A DNA stretch of 62,962 bases, counting the filler, from Nitrospinota bacterium (GTDB taxonomy: Bacteria > JAUXIQ01): NCBI GenBank assembly GCA_030620925.1. It is 16 parts of 16 records of this genome, joined end to end, with 100 filler letters (N's around TTAATTAATTAA, not from the genome) between each part and the next. Parts side by side here need not be neighbours in the genome. Positions count along the whole stretch, not along the records: positions 1 to 5,983 come from JAUXIQ010000142.1; 15 more parts are not named here. One strand, 5' to 3'. The notes under the pieces are model-generated. The model was not told where the DNA came from, searched no databases, and saw nothing but the letters and a program-made list of their open reading frames with translations. This document shows positions 1 to 8,924 of this stretch, one piece after another (positions within the stretch are counted from its first letter, which is position 1; every line of letters starts with the position of its first letter). The translations under genes were made by a program, and so were the position numbers.

Positions 1-240
1 AATATGGCCGGTTGCCCATATTAATGGGCGTTCTGAGACCTCATTTTTTTAAGCCTCGAACCCAACCAGAAAAAAGTACGATCTTACCACCCCGCAACGC
101 CTCTCGGGGACACTGAAGCCGTAATTAAGGTAGTAATTGCCTATTGAAATATTGAGGTCATCGGTAGGCATGTTGGGTGTGGAGTACAGGGAGAACTCTT
201 GATTGAGTACGCGGAATGAACCGAAGGGTAGGATTAAAGA

Positions 241-272
241 AAAGGGGCCAGCCTCATCAGGCTAACCCCTTT
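241..272 (-). terminator. Hairpin directly downstream (minus strand) of the tRNA-Ala 3' fragment; likely intrinsic terminator
   Basis: aaagggg-ccagcct...aggct-aa-ccccttt inverted repeat with A/T tails. Confidence 0.6.
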
Positions 273-279
273 AATTATT

Positions 280-321
280 TGGTGGAGGGTATCGGGATCG
301 AACCGATGACCTGCTGATTGC
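280..321 (-). mobile_element. tRNA-Ala 3' half (att-like duplication; 5' half absent)
   Basis: Reverse complement GCAATCAGCAGGTC-ATCGG-TTCGATC-CCGAT-ACCCTCC-A-CCA: perfect T-arm, U70 and A73 (Ala identity elements), CCA end; no D-arm or 5' acceptor strand upstream. Confidence 0.8.
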
Positions 322-401
322 GCCTACACTGCATAATTCTATAGCAATCAAAATGTATTCCATCACAGCATCGACAAAACATACTGTTTTTAAAGACAAA
401 A

Positions 402-443
402 TAGTGGAGGGTAAGGGATTCGAACCCGAATATGAAGATTGCG
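402..443 (-). mobile_element. Second, degenerate tRNA-Ala-like 3' fragment (att scar)
   Basis: Reverse complement CGCAATCTTCATATTCGGG-TTCGAAT-CCCTTACCCTCCACTA; shares GCAATC, TTCGA and TACCCTCCA with the 280-321 copy. Confidence 0.6.
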
Positions 444-882
444 AAGCCAAAAAGGCTAATTTTCATAAGGGCTTGATTTTACGTCTGGTTTCCCCTTTTT
501 TCACTAAATTCAAAGGCTTACTCTAATTCCAATACGTCCATAGGGTTCATTTGAGCCCATAGAGTTTGACTGCGTTTATCACGTTTTTATCACACTGGCG
601 GGGGTGCAGCCCCGGTTAAGAGAGTTCATGTCAGCACACTTATATTGATATCAAGTTGTTTTTTCTTGACAAGTATACTGGCTGTGAATAATAATGCACA
701 TCTCCGGTAAACTATTTTTATTTAAAACAGACATACTAGTTCTATAGGATTAGTATGCGGTGATTAACGTAGAAATGATATTCACTCCCGGGTCCCCTTA
801 TTATATGAAGATAGCCGGGGCAAGGACGATGGGTTTTACACAATCCATCCATAGCTCTACTCGATTAGCATGAAAATATAGT

Positions 883-2280
883 ATGAAAATAGCAGATGCA
901 CTGCACAAGGTTTGGCTAAATTACATTTGTAAAGATGATGCATTATCGAAGAATGCTGTAGTAAAGTCGCTTGGTGATGTGGGCATCGATACATACACAC
1001 CGAACTCCTGTCCGAACAAAGGCCCCGGTCTTCTTTTCTTTGACGAATTCGACCAATCAATCTGTGATTTCCTGCGTGAAAGTAGTCATTGCGGCCTCGA
1101 AAAGGTGCTGGCTATAACAACACCAGCGGCAACTTTAGCCGAAGGCGATGTCTGGCGCATATTAAAAGCCGGTGTATCAGACGTTATGGTCTGGAATGAT
1201 TCCGACAAATCGGCTAAGGAGGTTTTGGCACGATTAGAAAGATGGCGATATATAGATGACTTGTTGCGCTCACCACTGGTAAGGAATAATCTGATAGGGC
1301 AGAGTCCGGCATGGCTCTCTGCCCTGGCGCAGATGGTTGGAGTAACAAGCTTTAATGACGCATCAATCCTGCTCATCGGGGAAACGGGGACAGGCAAGGA
1401 GTTGTTGGCGAAGCTGTTGCATACCATGGGCACGCGGCCTGACAAAGGTGACCTCGTGGTACTGGACTGCACCACTATCGTGCCTGAGTTGTCGGGCAGT
1501 GAGTTCTTTGGCCATGAGCGCGGCGCCTTCACGGGTGCCGTTGCATCTCGCGACGGAGCCTTTGCAATGGCCAACGGCGGCTCTCTGTTCCTGGACGAGG
1601 TTGGAGATTTGCCGCTTGAGCTCCAGGCCCAGTTACTGCGTGTTATTCAAGAGCGCACCTACAAGCGTGTGGGGGGCAATACCTGGTATAATACGGACTT
1701 CAGGCTTATCTGTGCGACCAACAAGGATTTGTCCGCAGAGGTAAAAAATGGGGGCTTCCGCAGTGATTTATTCTATAGAATAGCTGGAGAGACCTGCAGA
1801 GTGCCCCCGCTCCGTGAACGTACCGAAGATATAATCCAGCTTGCAACCCACTTTATCAAGCAACTTCGGCCTGAAGAGAAGCCCCTTGAAATGAATTGGT
1901 TTGTAAAAAAATTCCTGTTGAGCCGTAAATACCCCGGCAATGTGCGCGAGCTGCAACAACTGGTATCCCGCATGATGTATCGCCATGTGGGTACGGGTCC
2001 GATCACCATTGGAGACATCCCGGAGGATGAGCGCAATGATAGCATGCTCGATATCGCTTCACGGGAATGGATCGATAAGTCTTTCGATAGATCTATCCGT
2101 CGCGCAATCTCACATGGTGTTGGGCTAAAGGATATAGGCCGTGCAGCGGAAAACGCTGCGTTTCGTATAGCGCTCCGGGAAGAGAACGACAACTCTGAGC
2201 GAGCGGCACGCAAGCTGGGGATAACAAAGCGGGCGGTGCAGGAGCGTAAGGCCGGCCGTCTTAAAAGCTGGAACGCTTAA
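883..2280 (+). CDS. Sigma54-dependent transcriptional activator (degenerate receiver-like N-terminus, AAA+, Fis-type HTH)
   Basis: GETGTGKE Walker A, GAFTGA, LFLDEVG Walker B, YPGNVREL, C-terminal RAARKLGIT. Confidence 0.93.
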   Translation: MKIADALHKVWLNYICKDDALSKNAVVKSLGDVGIDTYTPNSCPNKGPGLLFFDEFDQSICDFLRESSHCGLEKVLAITTPAATLAEGDVWRILKAGVSDVMVWNDSDKSAKEVLARLERWRYIDDLLRSPLVRNNLIGQSPAWLSALAQMVGVTSFNDASILLIGETGTGKELLAKLLHTMGTRPDKGDLVVLDCTTIVPELSGSEFFGHERGAFTGAVASRDGAFAMANGGSLFLDEVGDLPLELQAQLLRVIQERTYKRVGGNTWYNTDFRLICATNKDLSAEVKNGGFRSDLFYRIAGETCRVPPLRERTEDIIQLATHFIKQLRPEEKPLEMNWFVKKFLLSRKYPGNVRELQQLVSRMMYRHVGTGPITIGDIPEDERNDSMLDIASREWIDKSFDRSIRRAISHGVGLKDIGRAAENAAFRIALREENDNSERAARKLGITKRAVQERKAGRLKSWNA

Positions 2281-2340
2281 GGAGGCCCCCGTATACGTAC
2301 TGGGCATATACGACAAACTCTTCGAGGCCGTGGCGTTCAC

Positions 2341-3159
2341 TCAGCGAAGGACTCTAACGTTACCTGCCGCTTTGCCGGCCGCGTAGGGGTCTATCACCCG
2401 CGCAAGCGGCCGCGTACGCACCCCCCTGATCAGCCTTAGAAGGTTCCCTCCCAATACGAGCTGTTCATCCGATGGGGAAAGGCCAAGGGCGCGCACCTTA
2501 GCCAGCTCAAGACCGGGGTGCAGCCACGGGCCGTCTGAACCGAAGAGTATCTTCTTAGCACCCGCCTCCCGGACGGCTCTTTCTAGCAGATCAAAGCTGC
2601 GGACGCCGGAGGTATCTGCAAAGATATTCGGGCGGCGGACCAGATGGTCGGTCAATGCAAACTGCGCTTTCCAGTCATCCGAAAAGCTACCCATGTGCGG
2701 AATGATGAAAGCGACATCGGGGTATTGTGACGCCAGAAGCTCCACCATCGGCACCTCACCCCCGACGTCATATAGTATCGGCAGTTTAAAGGCACGTCCG
2801 GCCTCACAGACCTCTCTTGTTATACGCGCATCGTGGCGGTGCACCTTGATTCCACAAAAACCGTATCTCTGAACCGCCTCCCTTATCATTGAATTTATAC
2901 GCCCTCTATCCCGCTTAGGGTGGACCATGGCAAACCCGTAGAAGCGGCCCGGGCTGCCGGCAACGATCCGCGCCAGCTCCCTGTTAGCCGCTCTGTAGTT
3001 GTTGCCGAATGCCGGAAAGAGCACCGTTCGCTTGATCCCCGCCTTTACAGCTCTTTTTATATAGCGTTCAAGCGGCGCCGCCGTATCCCATGGACCGGTA
3101 AAGCCGTCCCCCTTGCCTGCGTGACAGTGGCAGTCTATGATAACCGAAGGTGTCTTCAT
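2341..3159 (-). CDS. Amidohydrolase_2 family metal-dependent hydrolase
   Basis: IDCHCH, GIKVH, PHMG, ILFGSDGP motifs. Confidence 0.88.
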   Translation of the reverse strand: MKTPSVIIDCHCHAGKGDGFTGPWDTAAPLERYIKRAVKAGIKRTVLFPAFGNNYRAANRELARIVAGSPGRFYGFAMVHPKRDRGRINSMIREAVQRYGFCGIKVHRHDARITREVCEAGRAFKLPILYDVGGEVPMVELLASQYPDVAFIIPHMGSFSDDWKAQFALTDHLVRRPNIFADTSGVRSFDLLERAVREAGAKKILFGSDGPWLHPGLELAKVRALGLSPSDEQLVLGGNLLRLIRGVRTRPLARVIDPYAAGKAAGNVRVLR

Positions 3160-4634
3160 GCATTACCTCGAAGTGCCGCCGGCATGCGCTTTACCCGTCC
3201 TTTCGCAGGATGGGCCATCAGGCTTCGTCTGGAGGCGATCTCCGCCAAAAACCTGATGCAGGCCGCTATGCCTTTGTAAAAGTTGGGTAGATGAAACTTT
3301 TCATCAGGGGCATGGATACGGTCGCCGGGCAGTCCGAAGCCCATGAGAACCGTAGGAACGCCGAGTATCTCCTTGAAGAGATTTACAGCCGGTATCGTTC
3401 CGCCCGACCGGACGAATACGGGTTTTGAACCGAAGGCCTTGCTATATGCCGCTTCTGCCGCATTTATGGAAAAGTGGTTGCGGTTGATCTCTATGGGTTT
3501 GGCGCTGAGCGTTGTGCGAATAGAGCAATGGACGGTTCGCGGGGTGATACGCCTGATGTGCCGGCGAACCAGATCTTCGATTTCGCGAGGTTGCTGTCCT
3601 TTGACGAGGCGAAAGCCGAGCTTTGCCCGGGCAAGTGCGGGGATTATCGATTTGTTCCCCTTGCCCTGGTACCCCCCGGTGATCCCGTTAATGGTCAGGG
3701 CGGGACGGATCGTTGTCCTCTCGTACTGCGTGAATCCGTATTCGCCCCGGCCTTTTTCCACCTGTGCGTCACGGGTGATCCGCGCGTCGCTCGGGCCGAC
3801 GGTCTTCATATAGGCGCGCTCCTCTTCGCCGTACTCCAGTACGCGATCATAAAAACCCGGTATCGCTATTCGCCGGTTCTTATCATGCAGCCCGGCTATC
3901 ATCTCGCAAAGGACCTGGACGGGGTCGTGAACCGCCCCGCCGAACTTGCCTGAGTGCAAGTCCGCTTCCGGACCTCTCACTTCCAGCTCCATACTGAGCG
4001 CGCCGCGCAGCGAACAGGTGATAGCCGGGCGGTCCGGTGCGGGGATGCTTGAATCGGACAGAACCGCAACGTCCGCCCCGAGCGCCCCCCTGTTTCGTGT
4101 TAAAAAAGAGGGCAGGTTCGGGCTGCCGATCTCCTCCTCCCCCTCGAATATGCACTTGATATTTATCGGCAGTCTGCCGCCGGCCGTGCGGAGGCAGGAC
4201 TCGAGCGCCTTTATCTGGGCCAGTAGCTGCCCCTTGTCGTCGGACGCCCCCCTGCCGTAAAGATCGTTGCCCCGGATCCTGGGCTCGAACGGCGGTGAGG
4301 ACCACTCATCGACCGGGTCTACCGGCTGTACGTCGTAGTGCCCGTAGAAGAGAACGGTAGGTCCGTCCGGCCTGCCGCGCGAATCGGCGTAGACCAACGG
4401 ATGACGACGGGTCGGGATGACCTTTACATTCTTAAGCCCCGCCCGTCTCAAGTGCTTCGCCAGCCACAGCGCGCCCCTCTTCACATCCTCTTTGTGCCTC
4501 GGCTGGGCGCTGACGGTCGGGATGCGGACGAAGTCCGTAAGCTCCGAAAGAAAGCGCTTGGAGTTGGCCCTGGCGTATGCGAGGGGGCCTGCAACATCAA
4601 ACATAAGACCGGTACCTCGACTCTCTTCGTTCAA
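3156..4634 (-). CDS. M20 family dipeptidase/deacylase
   Basis: YGHYDVQP, RGASDDKG, EGEEEIGS, DLHSG, HAPDE. Confidence 0.92.
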   Translation of the reverse strand: MNEESRGTGLMFDVAGPLAYARANSKRFLSELTDFVRIPTVSAQPRHKEDVKRGALWLAKHLRRAGLKNVKVIPTRRHPLVYADSRGRPDGPTVLFYGHYDVQPVDPVDEWSSPPFEPRIRGNDLYGRGASDDKGQLLAQIKALESCLRTAGGRLPINIKCIFEGEEEIGSPNLPSFLTRNRGALGADVAVLSDSSIPAPDRPAITCSLRGALSMELEVRGPEADLHSGKFGGAVHDPVQVLCEMIAGLHDKNRRIAIPGFYDRVLEYGEEERAYMKTVGPSDARITRDAQVEKGRGEYGFTQYERTTIRPALTINGITGGYQGKGNKSIIPALARAKLGFRLVKGQQPREIEDLVRRHIRRITPRTVHCSIRTTLSAKPIEINRNHFSINAAEAAYSKAFGSKPVFVRSGGTIPAVNLFKEILGVPTVLMGFGLPGDRIHAPDEKFHLPNFYKGIAACIRFLAEIASRRSLMAHPAKGRVKRMPAALRGNA

Positions 4635-5656
4635 ATCGTGTGTGCTATAATAAAGTCTCTCACGTCGTCGTCGATAAAGACGGCCCTGTTGCCCCTCCCG
4701 CCGAGGCTGCGGGCCGATATATGAATGCCGACCAGGACGCGGCCGCCCTTGCTGGGGTGGCGCCTCACCCAGACGGGGCTCCCGCTGTGCCCGCCACAGG
4801 TGTCGTTCAAATAAGAGAGTATGCCAGTAGCCCTATGAAGCCTCACCGTCTGGTTGTAAGAACGGTACTGGTACGTTCCGCATAACGGGCTCCGGCCCGG
4901 GGCATCGAAGCCCCGCGCAGCGCAGCTGCGTCGCGACGCCGAGGAGCGGCACCCGAGTAGTCGTCCTCTCCGTCTCGCCCTTCGCATGCTCGCGGGACGG
5001 CCCGGGTCTGCCAGGTCCCCCGGATAACCGGAGATGTTAACCTTCAGCACGCCCGCCCTCAGCGGAAGCGGGCCGGTGAGCATGCTTGTACCGGTGCTGC
5101 CTCCGGGTCCGGGCCTGTAGGTACGGCCCCAGTCGCCAACGGTGTTTCCGAGAGGGTCATCCAGATGGATAATGGCGTAGTCGGTCTGGGTTGTCGGTTC
5201 ATAAATGTTGGCACCAACGGGCAGTTCACTGTTGCGCACCCCGCTGCGGCCAAACGGGGAGGTCGCCCCGTTGCGCCCCGGGATTACCCGCAATCTCGCA
5301 TCAGGAATTTTATTGTCATCTTCATCATGCAGGACATGCCCGGCGGTCAGCACGGTTCTGGGGCCTATGAGTGTGCCGGTGCCCCACGGTATCCAGTCGC
5401 CAACATCGGGGTGGTTCACTTCGATGCTGCAGATGTAGCGGAAGGGCACCCGGGTCGTATGCAAAATGGGCCTGCGCGTGTCCACCCCCAATATCTCGCG
5501 CTCATAAGCGTTATCGGCCCCGCCGAAGCCGCCGTATATCTCCGAATCTTCGTCCGGGAGCTCATCGCTCAGGAACTCATCGAAGATCTCCTTGGAGGGG
5601 TAGAGATCATCAAAGCCTCCTACCTCCTTCTGTCTATTGCCTGAACAGCATGTCAT
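4631..5656 (-). CDS. Trypsin-fold serine protease, V8/glutamyl endopeptidase-like, with acidic pro-region and no signal peptide
   Basis: LTAGHV, TDYAII, GYPGD, DTCGGHSGSPV, VGIH. Confidence 0.88.
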   Translation of the reverse strand: MTCCSGNRQKEVGGFDDLYPSKEIFDEFLSDELPDEDSEIYGGFGGADNAYEREILGVDTRRPILHTTRVPFRYICSIEVNHPDVGDWIPWGTGTLIGPRTVLTAGHVLHDEDDNKIPDARLRVIPGRNGATSPFGRSGVRNSELPVGANIYEPTTQTDYAIIHLDDPLGNTVGDWGRTYRPGPGGSTGTSMLTGPLPLRAGVLKVNISGYPGDLADPGRPASMRRARRRGRLLGCRSSASRRSCAARGFDAPGRSPLCGTYQYRSYNQTVRLHRATGILSYLNDTCGGHSGSPVWVRRHPSKGGRVLVGIHISARSLGGRGNRAVFIDDDVRDFIIAHTI

Positions 5657-5983
5657 CTTCCACCTCCTATTCGTAGAGTTGCACCATTTACGCTTCTTAT
5701 CGATGCGGCTTTAGCGAGAGCTTGCACCGCACGGTCGATATCTTCCGGGGCGTGGGCAGCCGTGATGATAAAGCTGATCTTCGCACCGCCTCCGCCCCCG
5801 CTCGTCAGAACCGTCCTGACCCCGGCGTCCGACAGCCGCCCGTAAAGAGAGACGGCATCGAGGCCCGGTACCGGTGCAAGCGTCTGTACGGGAAACAGTC
5901 CGCCGGTGCAGGAGAAGCCCGCGGTCTTAAGCCGGCCCCTGAAGTGCCGGATGAGCCGGAGCAGCCGCGACCTCAAGCGCTCC
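5653..5983 (-). CDS. PLP-dependent class I/II aminotransferase (BioF/AONS-like), C-terminal fragment cut by contig end
   Basis: FPVQTL and KISFIITAAHAPEDIDRAV resemble the AONS C-terminal small domain. Confidence 0.65.
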
Positions 5984-6083
5984 NNNNNNNNNNNNNNNNN
6001 NNNNNNNNNNNNNNNNNNNNNNNNNNNTTAATTAATTAANNNNNNNNNNNNNNNNNNNNNNNNNNNNNNNNNNNNNNNNNNNN
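5984..6083. other. Artificial contig spacer N44-TTAATTAATTAA-N44; identical copies start at 11499, 15199, 19064, 22487, 26877, 29512, 33279, 35895, 38687, 43454, 46712, 52048, 55136, 59915
   Basis: Constant 100-bp length, stops in all six frames, genes truncated on both sides. Confidence 0.99.
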
Positions 6084-6206: not shown

Positions 6207-6348
6207 GTAAACATGCTAATATAGTCGCTCTTCACTCCACTTTCACCCGCCTGTGGCCCTCGGGCCGGGCTTAACCGATAAAAGGTGTTGTTTTATTTGA
6301 CCTCAGAGGTCATACCCCTGATCCTAAACCAAACGAGGAGATTTGAAG

Positions 6349-6768
6349 ATGGCAGAACTGATCAACGAAGTAGCGCTGGGCGTTTCCAAGGGAACCGAAG
6401 TAGAAGAAGCCGTAGACCAGAACTTCCGGGGCGAGACCATGGAAGTAGGCCTATATCTGGCCATGGCGCGGCAGGCGGAACGGGAAGGCTATCCTGAAGT
6501 GGCCAGGACGCTTGAGGCCATCGCCTGGGACGAAGCGCAGCACGCCGCCCACTTCGCCGAGCTTAACGGCAAGATCAGCACCAGCACCAAAGAAAACATC
6601 GCCAAGATGCTCTCCGGCGAGCAGGCCGCCAACAAGATGAAAAAGGAAGCGGCCATCAAGGCCAAGGAGACGGAGTGCGACCCGGCCCACGATTTCTTCG
6701 ACGAATCTTCCCGCGATGAGGGGAGGCACGCCAGGGCACTCGAAGGGCTCCTCAAACGCTACTTCTAA
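6349..6768 (+). CDS. Rubrerythrin-family ferritin-like diiron protein lacking a rubredoxin domain
   Basis: [40 protein letters not shown]. Confidence 0.88.
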
Positions 6769-6843: not shown

Positions 6844-7812
6844 TCATCTGGAAGAATCGGCCCGCACAGCGCTGCCGGTGCTCAACGAATGGATTTTCGA
6901 GCATATCTCTCCGGCGCCTGCGATGATACCATCAACGAGTTCTTTAACGCTCACTATGTCATTTATCATCCCACACACCTGCACAGCGGCCATTGTGCTT
7001 CCCTGACGATAACCCCCGTCGACCGAGTTCCTGGGCTTCATGGCCCTCAGCTCTTCCTCCGATGCGCCCCCGGCCTCCGCCTCCATATACTCCCGCATGG
7101 CTTCGTTCAGGATAACCCTCACCGGCTTGCCGGTGAAAATAGTGCTCACCGTGGTCTGCTCTTCGCTGCTGTTCAGTATCAGTTCTTTCAGCTCGGGCGG
7201 CGCGGTGCTTTCATCGGTGGCGATGAACCGCGTCCCTATCTGCACCCCGGCAGCGCCCATGGCCAGCGCGGCGACAAAACCGCGGGCGTCGGCGAAGCCG
7301 CCCGCCGCCACCACCGGCAGCTTCACGGCGTCCACCACCTGGGGCACAAGGGGAAGCGTGGATACCTTCCCCACGTGACCGCCGGCTTCACACCCGGAAG
7401 CCACGATGACGTCCGCCCCCTCTTCCTCGAGCCTCAGCGCATGCCTGGCGGTGGGGACCACCGGTATCACGGTTATGCCGTGCTCTTTGAGCAGCTTCAC
7501 CACCGGTGTGCGGGGGTCTCCCCTCCCCGTGGTGGCTATGGTCACCCCTTCGGATACGGACAGCTCAGCCATCTTCTGGAACCCCGGCCCCATGGGGACC
7601 AGGTTGACGGCGAAAGGTTTATCCGTAAGGTCTCTGGTGCGCTTGATTTCATCCCTGATCTGCTCCGGCCGGTAGTAGGCCGTGGCCAGCACCCCCAGGC
7701 AGCCGGCGTTAGAGACCGCGGCCACGAAACGGGCATCGGTTACCCCGGACATGGCCCCCTGCAGAATGGGATACTTTATTCCTAACGTGTCGCAAATAAC
7801 GGTGTGGAACAT
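6844..7812 (-). CDS. Nitronate monooxygenase/FabK-like FMN enzyme
   Basis: YPILQGAM, EAGGHVG, AAGGFADARG, GVQIGTRF; likely start MFHTVIC after GGAGG. Confidence 0.88.
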   Translation of the reverse strand: MFHTVICDTLGIKYPILQGAMSGVTDARFVAAVSNAGCLGVLATAYYRPEQIRDEIKRTRDLTDKPFAVNLVPMGPGFQKMAELSVSEGVTIATTGRGDPRTPVVKLLKEHGITVIPVVPTARHALRLEEEGADVIVASGCEAGGHVGKVSTLPLVPQVVDAVKLPVVAAGGFADARGFVAALAMGAAGVQIGTRFIATDESTAPPELKELILNSSEEQTTVSTIFTGKPVRVILNEAMREYMEAEAGGASEEELRAMKPRNSVDGGYRQGSTMAAVQVCGMINDIVSVKELVDGIIAGAGEICSKIHSLSTGSAVRADSSR

Positions 7813-7832
7813 TTCCTCCCCCTGTCCGCTCC

Positions 7833-8075
7833 TTACTCGAGGGTTATGCCGCCGTAGACGCAGTAATCCACGCAGACGTTGCAGGAAGTGCACTCCTCGG
7901 TGAACCGGGTAACTTTCTCTCCTGTCGGTTTGCGCTCTATGATAATCCTTGCCTTGGAGGGATTGAAGACTTTCTCGTAGGTTATGGAGCAGATGAGCTG
8001 GCAGTTGATGCACTGCGTGCATCGGCCAACGTCTATCACCACGCTGGTGTTGTTCTCATCGACATAAGTTTCCAT
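7833..8075 (-). CDS. 4Fe-4S dicluster ferredoxin-like protein
   Basis: CTQCINCQLIC and CTSCNVCVDYC. Confidence 0.85.
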   Translation of the reverse strand: METYVDENNTSVVIDVGRCTQCINCQLICSITYEKVFNPSKARIIIERKPTGEKVTRFTEECTSCNVCVDYCVYGGITLE

Positions 8076-8126: not shown

Positions 8127-8924
8127 TCAGCCCTTCTTTTTGTCCTTCTCCCCGTCCGGATAGCTGAAGGCCAGTCCCGCCGAGGGGTCCGCCTGTGCCC
8201 CCCACAGGGGGATGGGATACTTGAGCCCGGCCTTGGCCAGCCCCTGCAGCCCCTCTATGGCCTTGGGGAGAAAGCGGGGGGGCAGGGCCATCAGCATCTC
8301 ATCGTCTGCGACGTGGCCGTAGCGCCTCTCCCCGTAGCAGGGAATGGCAGCCGCGGGCTTGTCGGACAGGATGCTCTGCGAAATGGAGTCTGAACAGGCC
8401 GTTTCGCCCACGCAGAAGAACTCGTAGCGTTCGTAATCCTTCCACTGCAGCCCGTTGATGAGCAGGATGATCTGCGCCGGGTTGCCGAATAACAGGACGG
8501 TGTCCGGCGGGTCAAGCCTGCCCGAGCCCAGAGGGGAAAAAGCGGCGGCATGATACTTCCCTGCGGAAACGCGGGGGATGGCCTGCTGATGTTTTGCGGC
8601 GTCCGCCTTTTCCTTGAACCAGACTCCCGTCAGCCGGGTGCCGTCCATGAGGTCCGGTGCGGGGGTGGCAAGCCCTATGACCGTGGCGCAGTTGCCACCC
8701 ACGAAATCGTCGGCGACAACCCCCAGCGTCCACCCTATTCTCCGGGCCTGATATATCACCTGGCACATGGTAGCCTTGCCCTGCAAACGGCGGATGCGGG
8801 GGACTTTCATCATCTCCTCTTCGGATTCGAAGAGCTTTATTCCTATGGGAAGCGTCCTCAGCCTCAACATGCCCTCCAGCATCGAAGAGAGCTCCTTCCA
8901 GTTCATTGCCGCTTTATCTTCCAT
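8127..8924 (-). CDS. DUF169 family uncharacterised protein
   Basis: PIGIKLF, CQ...ARRIG, NPAQ, TACSD, PCYGERRYG. Confidence 0.8.
   Translation of the reverse strand: MEDKAAMNWKELSSMLEGMLRLRTLPIGIKLFESEEEMMKVPRIRRLQGKATMCQVIYQARRIGWTLGVVADDFVGGNCATVIGLATPAPDLMDGTRLTGVWFKEKADAAKHQQAIPRVSAGKYHAAAFSPLGSGRLDPPDTVLLFGNPAQIILLINGLQWKDYERYEFFCVGETACSDSISQSILSDKPAAAIPCYGERRYGHVADDEMLMALPPRFLPKAIEGLQGLAKAGLKYPIPLWGAQADPSAGLAFSYPDGEKDKKKG

What the first reader, a model, noticed from the sequence alone, without database searches (positions are those of the whole stretch)
883..5983. Candidate undescribed sigma54-linked peptide-processing system on an island: PLP enzyme, V8-like protease, M20 peptidase, amidohydrolase
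Seen: four minus-strand genes are chained by 4-bp start/stop overlaps (ATGA 5653-56, TTGA 4631-34, ATGA 3156-59), which indicates translational coupling. They converge on a sigma54 activator and lie beside tRNA-Ala att scars. The three complete ones show no signal peptide. Known: the families are AONS-like PLP enzyme, trypsin-fold protease, M20 peptidase and amidohydrolase_2; I know of no characterised pathway that combines them. Inference: a mobile module that cleaves a protein or peptide at Glu, then trims and modifies the product (signal, RiPP-like metabolite, or a conflict/developmental function), with the activator as its dedicated regulator. The 5' part of the operon is lost at the contig end.
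Basis: partly seen in the sequence, partly recalled or inferred. Interest (0 to 1): 0.75.

Follow-up and report, generated by a model that had tools for sequence, protein, structure and literature searches.

The report
Tail end of sigma-54-switched envelope-attack island
These genes are the cut-off tail of a widespread but undescribed gene island in which a dedicated sigma-54 switch appears to turn on masked membrane-active proteins and export-signal-less cell-wall-cutting enzymes, most likely to burst the cell or release weapons.

Summary
Window 1-5983 is one whole 5,983-bp MAG contig carrying a sigma-54 activator that converges on amidohydrolase, M20 dipeptidase, V8-like protease and the last 109 codons of an AONS-like PLP enzyme.

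The four enzymes are not a fixed pathway. In 80 related loci from many phyla, the conserved unit runs in this order:
- a sigma-54 promoter
- 1-2 acidic, glycine-zipper proteins
- an orphan HExxH peptidase
- an orphan ~650-aa protein
- usually the PLP enzyme
- variable cargo
- the amidohydrolase, followed by the activator

Cargo is mostly signal-less peptidoglycan-binding wall hydrolases. The protease (10 of 80 loci) and M20 (18 of 80) are optional.

I read it as an inducible lysis or envelope-attack module (confidence about 0.5). A new export route, peptide maturation and wall remodelling remain open.

Published Paraburkholderia phymatum RNA-seq supplements show a non-significant trend: the island drops 4- to 33-fold in an rpoN mutant.

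Six literature searches found no description. The scan noted the same island type earlier in a Nitrosomonas genome (e1-5266598). This copy is truncated and its host assignment is uncertain.

The parts
241..272 (-). Terminator-like hairpin directly 3' of the first tRNA-like fragment
   Evidence: 14-pair stem followed by a T-run
281..323 (-). tRNA 3'-half-like fragment 1 (T-arm plus acceptor end CTCCACCA); possible att remnant
   Evidence: similar to fragment 2 and to the 3' end of the MAG's tRNA-Ala-GGC. Not called by ARAGORN or Rfam.
405..447 (-). tRNA 3'-half-like fragment 2 (ends CTCCACTA); degenerate copy of fragment 1
   Evidence: Rfam gives only a 13-nt T-loop match at 415-427. Region 201-600 has 57-98x summed contig depth against about 6x elsewhere, with several loose ends, in run X1.
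666..695 (+). Sigma-70-like promoter candidate for the activator gene
   Evidence: TTGACA-18-AATAAT, 11 of 12 matches. This is a consensus match only.
883..2280 (+). Sigma-54 enhancer-binding activator (465 aa): orphan ~125-aa N-terminal domain, AAA+ with a GAFTGA loop, conserved C-terminal region
   Evidence: Full-length homologues sit next to the amidohydrolase in 73 of 80 loci.
2341..3159 (-). Amidohydro_2 TIM-barrel metal hydrolase (272 aa), the most conserved island gene (62-74% identity across phyla)
3156..4634 (-). M20 dipeptidase/carboxypeptidase (optional island gene). The ORF begins at TTG 4634, but the probable true start is ATG 4604.
   Evidence: Present in 18 of 80 loci, mostly directly upstream of the amidohydrolase.
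4631..5656 (-). V8-like glutamyl-endopeptidase-type serine protease zymogen (341 aa), a cargo-slot gene. The acidic pro-region covers residues 1-54 (nt 5495-5656).
5653..5983 (-). C-terminal 109 codons of the island's AONS/Kbl-like PLP enzyme, cut by the contig end
5984..6083 (.). Artificial N/TTAATTAATTAA linker. The sequence beyond it is an unrelated contig.

Best explanation
Window 883-5983 is the promoter-distal end of one copy of a widespread, patchily distributed gene island.

Shown by comparison:
- Complete copies run in a fixed order:
  - a sigma-54 (-24/-12) promoter
  - one or two ~230-aa proteins with a very acidic N-terminal part, a glycine-zipper middle and a basic C-terminal 'GRWxRRGxxIVL' tail
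  - an orphan HExxH peptidase
  - an orphan ~650-aa protein
  - usually an AONS-like PLP enzyme
  - a variable cargo slot
  - sometimes an M20 dipeptidase
  - a highly conserved amidohydrolase
- A dedicated sigma-54 activator follows, usually convergent.
- Cargo is mostly peptidoglycan-binding wall hydrolases with no export signal. Proteases, PLD and deaminase domains also occur.
- Many cargo proteins share short acidic-aromatic leader motifs with each other and with the glycine-zipper proteins.
- In this window the cargo is a Glu-endopeptidase-like zymogen with an acidic pro-region, followed by M20 and the amidohydrolase.

Inferred mechanism:
1. An unknown signal acts on the activator's orphan N-terminal domain.
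2. The activator fires the sigma-54 promoter.
3. Masked pro-proteins are made.
4. Proteases strip the Glu-rich acidic masks. These are the HExxH peptidase and, here, the Glu-specific protease, which probably also activates itself after Glu54.
5. The unmasked glycine-zipper proteins permeabilise the inner membrane.
6. Cargo reaches the wall, and the cell lyses or releases its weapons.

The PLP enzyme, M20 and amidohydrolase are cytoplasmic small-molecule or peptide enzymes whose role is unknown. They may make or destroy a ligand for the switch.
For: Membership in the island family:
The best 80 are 61-74% identical and come from many phyla.
- The activator sits next to it in 61 of 63 loci with at least 2.5 kb downstream.
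- In the 53 loci with at least 9 kb upstream, the glycine-zipper protein is present in 49, HExxH in 51, the ~650-aa protein in 52 and the PLP enzyme in 40.

Sigma-54 control:
- Of 25 strict TGGCAC-N5-TTGC-type hits in 2 x 1.25 Mb, 10 lie within 200 nt upstream of glycine-zipper genes.
- A relaxed motif occurs upstream of 16 of 58 such genes, against 0.026 expected per 200 nt. It usually lies about 80 nt before the ATG.
- The MAG has rpoN.
- The compact P. phymatum copy, Bphy_6908-6913, was mapped exactly by coordinates. [quoted passage not shown] In bacteroids versus free-living cells the values are +4.04, +5.30, +2.95 and +2.01 (supplements of PMC5979394 and PMC5748707).

Envelope target (93 cargo-slot proteins from 45 loci):
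- 36 carry PG_binding_1 and 12 carry OmpA; 40 carry one or both.
- 19 carry wall-hydrolase domains: Amidase_2 4, VanY 6, M23 4, M74 3, Muramidase 1, DUF2272 1.
- By a crude hydropathy check, only 1 of 56 proteins in the ten tabulated slot clusters (one of five M23 members) has an N-terminal hydrophobic stretch.

Shared leaders:
- An acidic-aromatic motif occurs in 15 of 89 slot proteins and in 0 of 238 flanking proteins.
- The GRW motif occurs in 29 of 58 glycine-zipper proteins (C-terminal), in 5 of 89 slot proteins (N-terminal) and in 1 of 238 flanking proteins.

Protease:
- The triad H107/D159/S291 is invariant, and Glu54 is nearly invariant before 'IIGxDxR'.
- The nearest solved chain is glutamyl-endopeptidase 1p3c, E 4.3e-8. 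Its residue 4 aligns to query residue 57.

HExxH protein:
- HExGH is invariant and the AF2 model has pLDDT 87.5.
- The only zincin lead is the M48 protease BepA: Z 7.6, rmsd 4.5, 167 residues aligned.
Against: - No experiment shows lysis, pore formation or processing.
- The window lacks the promoter and all three orphan core genes. They were not found elsewhere in the 89%-complete MAG, so this copy may be incomplete or not functional.
- The glycine-zipper proteins have no classical transmembrane segment: 0 of 58 exceed a KD-19 hydropathy of 1.6. They are therefore not canonical holins.
- The P. phymatum expression trends are individually non-significant (p 0.066-0.36). They fall below the authors' cut-off (p <= 0.02) and are not discussed in the main text.
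- In the same data the amidohydrolase and activator do not follow the trend (-0.77 and +1.01).
- Deaminase, PLD and HNH-like cargo act on cytoplasmic targets, and PADLOC knows none of the core proteins. Phage defence is therefore unsupported.
- The lysis model leaves the PLP enzyme, M20 and amidohydrolase unexplained.
- The window's protease lacks the strict leader motif and any PG-binding domain.
- Contig composition is atypical for the MAG, so the host is uncertain.
Confidence: 0.5

Rival explanations
1. A new protein-export route. The glycine-zipper proteins, the HExxH peptidase and the ~650-aa protein would form or gate a channel that exports leader-tagged, signal-less antibacterial effectors. 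The producer survives, and the module serves competition between bacteria.
For: - Cargo resembles the effector repertoires of known antibacterial secretion systems: wall amidases and peptidases, PLD, and APOBEC-like deaminases.
- Cargo proteins share N-terminal leader motifs absent from the flanks: 15 of 89 against 0 of 238.
- Small Pfam-less ORFs next to cargo could be immunity genes (not examined).
Against: - There is no ATPase or other energy source and no outer-membrane component in the conserved core.
- No core protein has a transmembrane segment by the crude test, apart from borderline hydrophobic stretches.
- No immunity pairs were demonstrated.
- A fold search of the ~650-aa protein gave nothing (best Z 5.3).
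Confidence: 0.2
2. One reading: a peptide or protein maturation pathway. The acidic-leader proteins are precursors that are cut after Glu, trimmed by M20 and modified by the PLP enzyme and amidohydrolase, giving a signal or RiPP-like product.
For: - Acidic-leader proteins recur at the head of the operon, sometimes in two copies.
- Two or three proteases and two small-molecule enzymes are co-encoded.
- The PLP enzyme keeps the SLAK lysine motif and is present in 40 of 53 loci.
Against: - The putative precursors are ~230 aa and conserved along their whole length, unlike RiPP cores.
- No known RiPP enzyme family is present.
- The Glu-protease (4 of 53 loci) and M20 (13 of 53) are optional.
- The model does not explain why 40 of 93 slot proteins bind peptidoglycan.
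Confidence: 0.12
3. A conditional wall-remodelling or wall/peptide-scavenging programme, for example during host association, starvation or differentiation. Wall hydrolases, peptidases and amidohydrolase would turn over murein and peptides without killing the cell.
For: - In P. phymatum the operon trends upward in bacteroids, which remodel their envelope, and not under nitrogen starvation.
- The nearest solved relatives of the M20 are Sso-CP2 carboxypeptidase and dipeptidases such as carnosinase, CNDP2 and Dug1.
- Sigma-54 often controls nutrient responses (general knowledge).
Against: - The distribution is patchy and accessory: 3 strong matches in 61 genomes of one genus and 2 in 101 of another. 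That does not suit a housekeeping programme.
- The cargo includes deaminase, PLD and HNH-like proteins.
- Cargo varies from locus to locus like conflict genes.
- The hydrolases lack export signals.
Confidence: 0.1
4. Nothing special: a chance run of ordinary metabolic genes next to an unrelated sigma-54 regulator on a mis-binned contig.
For: - Each enzyme belongs to a large ordinary family.
- The contig is short and compositionally atypical for the MAG.
Against: - The amidohydrolase-activator pair and the upstream core recur in the same order in dozens of phylogenetically distant genomes.
- The protease's best homologues appear to sit on the same contigs as amidohydrolase homologues. This rests on equal contig lengths of 9955, 13499 and 21705.
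Confidence: 0.03

Closest known systems
Phage/tailocin holin-endolysin lysis cassettes and holin-dependent ('type 10') secretion
   Same: Signal-less peptidoglycan hydrolases are co-encoded with small proteins that look membrane-active. The expected outcome is lysis or release.
   Different: - No phage genes are present, and the core marker has no match in 50,697 phage records.
- The glycine-zipper proteins have no classical TM helices.
- Control is by a dedicated sigma-54 activator.
- There are three orphan core proteins plus a PLP enzyme and an amidohydrolase.
- Cargo also includes proteases, deaminases and PLD.
RtcR-type sigma-54 activators that switch on a neighbouring stress/defence operon (RtcR-RtcAB)
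   Same: A stand-alone bEBP with a non-kinase-linked N-terminal sensor domain lies beside the operon it presumably controls. The PADLOC model RtcR_PspF2 matches the AAA+ and C-terminal parts of the Pontibacter island activator (L048; E 3.4e-87). NCBIfam RtcR is the top, sub-cut-off hit for the window's own activator.
   Different: - The match starts at profile position 151, so the CARF sensor domain is not matched.
- The N-terminal ~125 aa has no Pfam hit in 0 of 8 proteins tested.
- The controlled genes are unrelated to RNA repair.
Glutamyl endopeptidases of family S1B (Bacillus intermedius BIGEP, PDB 1p3c; staphylococcal V8 protease)
   Same: - It has the trypsin fold with a His/Asp/Ser triad.
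- 1p3c is the nearest solved sequence (E 4.3e-8).
- Sources name the homologues 'V8-like Glu-specific endopeptidase'.
- There is a pro-region ending in Glu.
   Different: - There is no signal peptide.
- The pro-region is long, acidic and of variable length, with an N-terminal MxCxxC pattern.
- A Cys-rich insert is present.
- The protease is embedded as optional cargo of the island.
- Glu specificity was not tested.
Colicin-type release operons (toxin plus lysis gene under an inducible promoter)
   Same: The logic is similar: an inducible, costly operon that may couple toxin-like proteins to permeabilisation of the producer.
   Different: - No SOS control, no lipoprotein lysis gene and no receptor or translocation domains.
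- The regulation is different (sigma-54 with a bEBP).
- The resemblance is by logic only and was not tested.
CqsA/LuxO-type quorum sensing (AONS-like autoinducer synthase plus sigma-54 activator)
   Same: An AONS-family PLP enzyme occurs in one system with a sigma-54 bEBP. The NCBIfam autoinducer-synthase model hits the island PLP enzyme weakly (E 1.4e-13, below cut-off).
   Different: - There is no sensor kinase or phosphorelay.
- BioF and Kbl models score better than the autoinducer synthase model.
- The PLP enzyme is missing from 13 of 53 loci.
- This is a lead only.

Membership tests
[quoted passage not shown] | Sigma-54 interaction AAA+ domain scoring above the curated cut-off | tested here: met
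   PF00158: E 3.4e-55, 186.7 bits against a cut-off of 20.2
[quoted passage not shown] | GAFTGA loop that contacts sigma-54 | tested here: met
   'ERGAFTGAV' is present in the translation. The column is conserved in 31 aligned homologues. That this motif defines the family is recalled knowledge.
[quoted passage not shown] | Host encodes sigma-54 | tested here: met
   PF04552 match at G000:C170, 199.9 bits. Binning of C91 to this MAG is uncertain.
[quoted passage not shown] | A -24/-12 promoter in front of the controlled operon | not testable with these tools
   The operon's 5' end is off the contig, and there is no strict match inside window 1-5983. In relatives the feature is met: 10 of 25 strict hits and 16 of 58 genes with the relaxed motif.
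Response-regulator receiver domain (activator N-terminus) | Sequence match to the receiver family and a conserved phospho-acceptor Asp | tested here: inconclusive
   - Pfam gave 0 of 8 N-terminal domains with a hit.
- A profile search against PDB gave a response regulator only at E 0.51.
- The position after the 'GIxFF' strand is not a conserved Asp.
- Depositors label the P. phymatum homologue 'response regulator receiver protein'.
S1B glutamyl endopeptidase (V8-like) | Trypsin fold with a His/Asp/Ser triad | tested here: met
   PF00089, E 2.9e-9. H107, D159 and S291 are invariant in 14 aligned sequences.
S1B glutamyl endopeptidase (V8-like) | Closest characterised relative is a Glu-specific endopeptidase | tested here: met
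   1p3c glutamyl-endopeptidase, E 4.3e-8. The only other hit has E 0.0041.
S1B glutamyl endopeptidase (V8-like) | Cleavage after Glu | not testable with these tools
   This is inferred only, from family names and the nearly invariant Glu54 at the predicted pro-region boundary.
S1B glutamyl endopeptidase (V8-like) | Secreted with a signal peptide, as in the characterised members (recalled) | tested here: not met
   The best 10-residue hydropathy in the first 45 aa is 0.29, and net charge is -9 over the first 80 aa. This is a crude test.
M20 dipeptidase (NCBIfam NF006053) | Score above the curated equivalog cut-off | tested here: met
   516.1 bits against 441. The nearest solved relatives are Sso-CP2 carboxypeptidase, carnosinase and Dug1.
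Amidohydro_2 (PF04909) | Score above the gathering cut-off and metal-ligand motifs | tested here: met
   68.7 bits against 26.4. 'DCHCH', 'PHMG' and 'SDGPW' are visible in the sequence; assigning them as metal ligands is recalled knowledge. No NCBIfam family matches.
Alpha-oxoamine synthase (AONS/BioF/Kbl) family | Full-length match with the PLP-binding lysine | tested here: inconclusive
   - The window holds only the last 109 residues (E 4.3e-6, far below cut-offs).
- Full-length island homologues hit BioF at E 1.7e-25, but at 89.5 bits against a cut-off of 426.
- They keep a nearly invariant K in 'SSLAKG'.
- The family is therefore a divergent relative, not BioF or Kbl itself.
   They lie beyond the contig end. 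Single-protein queries did not find them elsewhere in the MAG. A contig of run X1 runs 418 nt past the end, but its letters are not available.
Holin-endolysin lysis cassette | Small holin with transmembrane helices | tested here: not met
   0 of 58 glycine-zipper proteins have a 19-residue hydropathy window above 1.6. PHROGs gives only weak hits of the Gly-rich stretch to tape-measure proteins.
Known anti-phage defence systems (PADLOC-DB 2.0) | Core proteins match a defence-system model | tested here: not met
   Only the activator's AAA+/HTH region (Pontibacter L048 copy) matches the RtcR models. There are two weak LmuA hits (E 0.0014 for the L048 deaminase cargo, 7e-6 for the window's protease) and ZorB hits to an OmpA-type cargo protein. 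The core proteins get none.

The most novel reading that the evidence does not exclude
The island is a previously unrecognised kind of protein-based bacterial weapon or suicide device. A sigma-54 switch releases a set of leader-tagged, charge-masked pro-proteins. An orphan HExxH peptidase, and in some islands a Glu-specific protease, unmask them. The unmasked glycine-zipper proteins then open the inner membrane to folded, signal-less wall hydrolases and toxins. This would be either a new export route or a new form of programmed cell lysis. It is spread by horizontal transfer through more than ten phyla and is switched on inside legume nodules in at least one rhizobium.
Probability: 0.35. Interest if true: 0.85.

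Novelty: categorically new. Interest (0 to 1): 0.7.

Why it matters
If the reading holds, several hundred environmental and plant-associated species carry a self-contained, tightly switched device for breaching a cell envelope. It is built from three protein families with no known relatives and uses a shared leader tag on its cargo. That would add a new entry to the short list of ways bacteria move folded proteins across, or destroy, their own inner membrane. It would also supply new controllable lysis parts and wall hydrolases. The accessory island in a model rhizobium may explain its apparent induction in nodules. For annotation, the work shows that the 'amidohydrolase 2', 'M20 dipeptidase' and 'trypsin-like protease' genes seen here are island components, not metabolism. 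The system is directly testable in Paraburkholderia phymatum STM815 (Bphy_6908-6913).

Tried and rejected
- **Missing 5' part.** Single-protein searches of the MAG for the ~650-aa and HExxH proteins found nothing. The PLP query found only the known fragment.
- **Close relatives.** The protease matched 2 of 61 genomes, namely the MAG itself and one weak hit. The amidohydrolase gave only distant paralogues.
- **Frameshift idea.** I suspected the Arg-rich stretch of the protease was a frameshift. It is not: the protein aligns end to end with 13 homologues, and the Cys-rich insert is a family feature.
- **Folds.**
  - The ~650-aa protein modelled poorly (pLDDT 63). Foldseek found nothing at E <= 0.001, and VIA-wide gave a best Z of 5.3.
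  - For the HExxH protein, Foldseek also found nothing. VIA-wide hits were dominated by generic helical bundles over residues 1-110; BepA scored Z 7.6.
  - PDB profile searches gave E >= 0.63.
  - The Atlas gave no usable hit for the ~650-aa protein. For HExxH it gave only leads at score 0.77 to clusters carrying M48 or U49 on 12-25% of members.
- **Complex prediction.** HExxH peptidase with the glycine-zipper protein gave no verdict (score 0.00). This is not evidence either way.
- **Activator N-terminal domain.** No Pfam hit in 0 of 8 proteins. The PDB profile search gave a best E of 0.35-0.51.
- **PADLOC and PHROGs.** Nothing informative for the core proteins.
- **Sigma-54 promoter inside the window.** No strict match. 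One relaxed match lies at 3182-3195 (-), 23 nt before the amidohydrolase ATG, which I do not trust.
- **tRNA linkage as a general feature.** Only 2 of 80 loci have a tRNA gene nearby.
- **Phage carriage.** 0 of 50,697 phage records match.
- **Expression.** No RNA holder is listed for the window stretch.
- **Literature.** Five full-text searches for a description of the system found none. A sixth search only located P. phymatum transcriptome papers. Passages of PMC7159879 describe something else.

Full report
**What the window is.** The 62,962-base window is not one locus. It is a string of short MAG contigs joined by N/TTAATTAATTAA linkers, with 15 linkers in all. Window 1-5983 is the whole of contig C91. 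The assembly has 445 contigs, 2.5 Mb, and is 89% complete with 3.6% contamination.

**Genes.**
- 883-2280 (+): a 465-aa sigma-54 enhancer-binding activator. Sigma54_activat scores E 3.4e-55 and the GAFTGA loop is present.
- 2341-3159 (-): an Amidohydro_2 enzyme.
- 3156-4634 (-): an M20 peptidase that passes the NCBIfam 'dipeptidase' equivalog cut-off (516 bits against 441).
- 4631-5656 (-): a trypsin-fold protease.
- 5653-5983 (-): the last 109 codons of an AONS/Kbl-like PLP enzyme.

The ATGA, TTGA and ATGA overlaps exist. The M20 gene more likely starts at the ATG at 4604 than at the overlapping TTG, because homologues begin 7-8 residues before the 'LAYA' motif.

**Left of the activator.**
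- There is a sigma-70-like promoter candidate at 666-695.
- Two mutually similar tRNA-3'-half-like segments lie at 281-323 and 405-447 on the minus strand. They end CTCCACCA and CTCCACTA.
- The first is followed by a terminator-like hairpin.
- ARAGORN and Rfam do not call them, so 'tRNA-Ala att scars' is plausible but not shown.
- In the one DNA run that holds the stretch, region 201-600 has 57-98x summed contig depth against about 6x elsewhere, with several loose ends. That piece is therefore repeated in the community.

**Does the gene set recur?** The closest genomes held do not carry it. The lineage is isolated, with only one same-family genome among the 60 sampled. The amidohydrolase, however, belongs to a very tight family.
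- In the 5.8-billion-protein collection the best 120 hits listed are 67-76% identical.
- The best 80 loci come from Acidobacteriota, Verrucomicrobiota, Planctomycetota, Chloroflexota, Nitrospira, Gemmatimonadota, Actinomycetes, Bacteroidota (Pontibacter, Hymenobacter and others) and Alpha-, Beta- and Gammaproteobacteria.

I called ORFs in these 80 loci, clustered them and laid the window's proteins on them. The activator, full-length at about 50% identity, follows the amidohydrolase in 73 of 80 loci. That is 61 of the 63 loci with at least 2.5 kb downstream. It is convergent in 66 loci and co-directional in 7.

In the 53 loci with at least 9 kb upstream, the genes present are:

| Gene | Loci of 53 |
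|---|---|
| ~230-aa acidic/Gly-rich protein, often two copies | 49 |
| ~447-aa protein with invariant HExGH | 51 |
| ~650-aa protein | 52 |
| PLP enzyme | 40 |
| M20 | 13 |
| V8-like protease | 4 |

Across all 80 loci, M20 is in 18 and the protease in 10. Only one locus has both. The PLP enzyme and amidohydrolase are near-core, while the protease and M20 are optional.

**The core.** The three upstream families have no Pfam, NCBIfam or PADLOC match and no PDB sequence relative.

The ~230-aa proteins:
- They start 'MHDIDRT'.
- Their first 80 residues have a median net charge of -16.
- They carry an 'ELAAELL...ELDQFLG' helix, a glycine-zipper stretch (GGxLKGxAKKALPxAGGAxG...), an 'EGLSxEDQEFE' segment and a basic 'GRWxRRGxxIVL' C-terminus.
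- They have no classical TM helix (0 of 58).
- The Gly-rich part hits phage tape-measure families only weakly.

The HExxH protein:
- It folds confidently (pLDDT 87.5).
- Foldseek finds nothing.
- The only zincin lead is the M48 protease BepA: Z 7.6, rmsd 4.5, 167 residues aligned.
- Atlas leads point weakly to M48/U49-bearing clusters at score 0.77.

The ~650-aa protein folds poorly (pLDDT 63) and matches nothing.

**The cargo slot.** I scanned 93 proteins lying between the core genes and the amidohydrolase in 45 loci.

| Domain | Proteins of 93 |
|---|---|
| PG_binding_1 | 36 |
| OmpA (40 proteins have PG_binding_1, OmpA or both) | 12 |
| Wall-hydrolase domains: Amidase_2 4, VanY 6, M23 4, M74 3, Muramidase 1, DUF2272 1 | 19 |
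| M20 | 10 |
| APOBEC-like deaminase | 4 |
| Trypsin at this threshold | 2 |
| PLD | 1 |
| No Pfam match | 30 |

- By a crude hydropathy test, only one protein in the tabulated slot clusters (one of five M23 members) has an N-terminal hydrophobic stretch.
- Many cargo proteins open with an acidic-aromatic motif such as 'FAFEAEPFEF'. A regex for it hits 15 of 89 slot proteins and 0 of 238 flanking proteins.
- The GRW motif of the glycine-zipper C-terminus reappears at the N-terminus of 5 of 89 slot proteins, against 1 of 238 flanking proteins.
- Shared tags on otherwise unrelated cargo argue that a common machinery recognises them. This is an inference.

**The window's own cargo.** The protease aligns end to end with 13 homologues.
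- H107, D159 and S291 are invariant.
- The N-terminal region is acidic, variable in length and often starts MxCxxC.
- Glu54 is nearly invariant just before 'IIGxDxR'.
- The nearest solved sequence is Bacillus glutamyl-endopeptidase 1p3c (E 4.3e-8). Its residue 4 aligns with query residue 57.
- From this I infer that residues 1-54 are a pro-region removed after Glu.
- Sources name the homologues 'V8-like Glu-specific endopeptidase'. Some are fused to OmpA or PG_binding_1.
- Three of the best homologues appear to share contigs with amidohydrolase homologues, judged by equal contig lengths.

The M20's nearest solved relatives are Sso-CP2 carboxypeptidase, carnosinases and Dug1. It has no acidic leader, so I count it with the cytoplasmic enzymes. 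The island PLP family keeps 'SSLAKG' and an AONS-like N-terminus, but it scores far below the BioF and Kbl cut-offs.

**Regulation.**
- A strict -24/-12 pattern occurs 25 times in both strands of the 1.25 Mb of loci. Ten of those hits lie within 200 nt upstream of a glycine-zipper gene.
- A relaxed pattern precedes 16 of 58 such genes, against 0.026 expected per 200 nt. It typically lies about 80 nt before the ATG.
- GCGAAG/CTTCGC half-sites, sometimes as GCGAAG-N4-CTTCGC palindromes, occur 18 times in 14 upstream regions, against about 4 expected. This is a candidate enhancer.
- Six loci carry their own rpoN-like gene (Sigma54 domains) within a few kilobases of the amidohydrolase; in three of them it lies between the amidohydrolase and the activator.
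- The MAG has rpoN.
- The activator's N-terminal ~125 aa is an orphan domain. Pfam gave no hit in 0 of 8 proteins, and a response regulator appears only at E 0.51 in a PDB profile search. Its 'AGASDV..W' pattern reminds me of receiver domains, but that is an impression, not a result.

**An experimental hint.** The HExxH marker hits 5 of 72,556 plasmid records, all megaplasmids or chromids. One is pBPHY01 of Paraburkholderia phymatum STM815.
- That copy is compact: glycine-zipper, HExxH, ~650-aa protein, one small ORF, amidohydrolase and a convergent activator.
- A single offset of 6,176,561 maps both ends of three ORFs exactly onto Bphy_6913, Bphy_6909 and Bphy_6908 in the Tn-seq supplement of PMC11681206.

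I read only the supplement rows and some main-text passages of the two RNA-seq papers.

| Gene | log2, rpoN-mutant vs wild-type nodules (PMC5979394, Table S8) | p | log2, bacteroids vs free-living (PMC5748707, Table S4) | p |
|---|---|---|---|---|
| Bphy_6913 | -5.05 | 0.066 | +4.04 | 0.11 |
| Bphy_6912 | -4.53 | 0.14 | +5.30 | 0.08 |
| Bphy_6911 | -3.86 | 0.094 | +2.95 | 0.19 |
| Bphy_6910 | -2.21 | 0.36 | +2.01 | 0.33 |
| Bphy_6909 (amidohydrolase) | -0.77 | 0.27 | -0.61 | 0.41 |
| Bphy_6908 (activator) | +1.01 | 0.10 | -0.28 | 0.62 |

Nitrogen starvation changes no gene by more than 0.9. None of these values passes the authors' threshold (p <= 0.02), and the genes are not mentioned in the main text. 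It is a consistent trend over four adjacent genes in two data sets, not a demonstrated result. Upstream of Bphy_6913 lie GGTATGACTCGTGC, 96 nt before the ATG, and a TGCGAA-N6-TTCGCA palindrome.

**Distribution and mobility.**
- The HExxH profile finds 1,145 representative clusters at E <= 0.001, of which 357 are at E <= 1e-30, among 1.84 billion.
- Within genera it is sporadic. In the genus of the Pontibacter locus there are 3 strong and 2 distant matches in 61 genomes. In the genus of a Bradyrhizobium locus there are 2 strong and 1 distant in 101.
- No phage record carries it.
- Only 2 of 80 loci have a tRNA gene nearby, so tRNA-site integration is not general.
- C91 is compositionally atypical for its MAG. 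Gene GC is 0.576 against 0.541 +/- 0.024, and only 4 of 140 similar-sized contigs lie farther from the genome's tetranucleotide mean. This fits either horizontal acquisition or mis-binning.

**Mechanism and rivals.** The best-supported reading is a sigma-54-switched module that makes masked, membrane-active proteins and signal-less envelope-degrading cargo. Dedicated proteases unmask them, and the result is lysis or release.
- Shown: gene order, recurrence, promoter motifs, cargo make-up, absence of export signals (crude test) and shared leader motifs.
- Inferred: unmasking by proteolysis, pore formation, the outcome, and any role for the PLP enzyme, M20 and amidohydrolase.

The nodule trend fits the last of these. 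None is excluded. A complex prediction between the HExxH peptidase and a glycine-zipper protein gave no verdict.

**Novelty.** Five full-text searches for a description of the system found none. A sixth only located the P. phymatum papers. Passages of the closest-looking paper, PMC7159879, concern other systems. The library lacks most subscription journals, so this is not proof of absence.

This scan noted the same island type before in a Nitrosomonas genome (e1-5266598) and read it much as I do.

This window adds:
- a truncated copy in an isolated lineage;
- a Glu-endopeptidase-type zymogen as cargo.

The comparative work for this report adds:
- the leader-motif statistics;
- the mapping to Bphy_6908-6913, with its expression trend.

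**Limits.**
- This copy lacks its promoter and core.
- The hydropathy checks are crude.
- ORF calling in the loci was my own greedy longest-ORF method, and some starts are over-extended.
- Counts from the 80 loci cover only the best 80 of at least 511 relatives.
- bioRxiv supplements were not available.

Noticed in passing
window 5984-6083 and 14 further sites (e.g. 11543, 15243, 19108): The window is a concatenation of many short contigs joined by N-runs around TTAATTAATTAA (15 linkers). Features must not be read across these joints.
   Followed up: yes
whole MAG (G000): The lineage is isolated. Among the 60 nearest genomes offered, one is 'same family' and all the others are only 'same domain'.
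   Followed up: no
L029, L043, L085, L097 (10735-10752) and other loci, upstream of the sigma-54 promoter: GCGAAG/CTTCGC half-sites recur, sometimes as GCGAAG-N4-CTTCGC or TGCGAA-N6-TTCGCA palindromes. There are 18 in 14 regions against about 4 expected. This is a candidate binding site for the island's activator.
   Followed up: partly
L026 6214-7587; L036, L059, L060, L067, L085: Some islands carry their own sigma-54 (rpoN-like) gene. In L059, L060 and L067 it lies between the amidohydrolase and the activator; in L026 and L085 just beyond the activator; in L036 upstream of the glycine-zipper gene. These islands bring their own sigma factor.
   Followed up: partly
L097 (P. phymatum STM815 pBPHY01, Bphy_6908-6913): A compact island lacks the PLP enzyme and recognisable cargo. 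Published RNA-seq supplements show a non-significant drop in an rpoN mutant and a rise in bacteroids. The Tn-seq tables record transposon insertions in all four genes looked up.
   Followed up: partly
L048 7441-8499, L051 7397-8515, L078 7218-8348, L092 8794-9921: The Bacteroidota copies (Pontibacter, Adhaeribacter, Rufibacter) carry an APOBEC-like deaminase in the cargo slot, just before M20 or the amidohydrolase.
   Followed up: no
G093, G112, G200; H5: Distant relatives of the HExxH core protein (E 1e-36 to 1e-45; 27% identity in a Paraburkholderia chromid) suggest a second, related system family.
   Followed up: no
window 201-600: In run X1 this stretch has 57-98x summed contig depth against about 6x for the genes, with loose ends at 248, 302, 308, 399, 594 and 600. 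It may be a repeat, a widely shared tRNA-derived sequence, or a weak point in the assembly of C91.
   Followed up: partly
L053 7890-9854; L080 5982-8363: Some large cargo proteins contain the glycine-zipper family's 'ELAAELL...ELDQFLG' module. This points to domain shuffling between the conserved head proteins and the cargo.
   Followed up: partly
window 6343-6768, 6844-8022, 8127-8924 (next contig): A rubrerythrin-like ORF, a nitronate-monooxygenase-like ORF and a further ORF were seen in the ORF list. They lie on a different contig and are unrelated to the finding. The family names are my impression and were not scanned.
   Followed up: no
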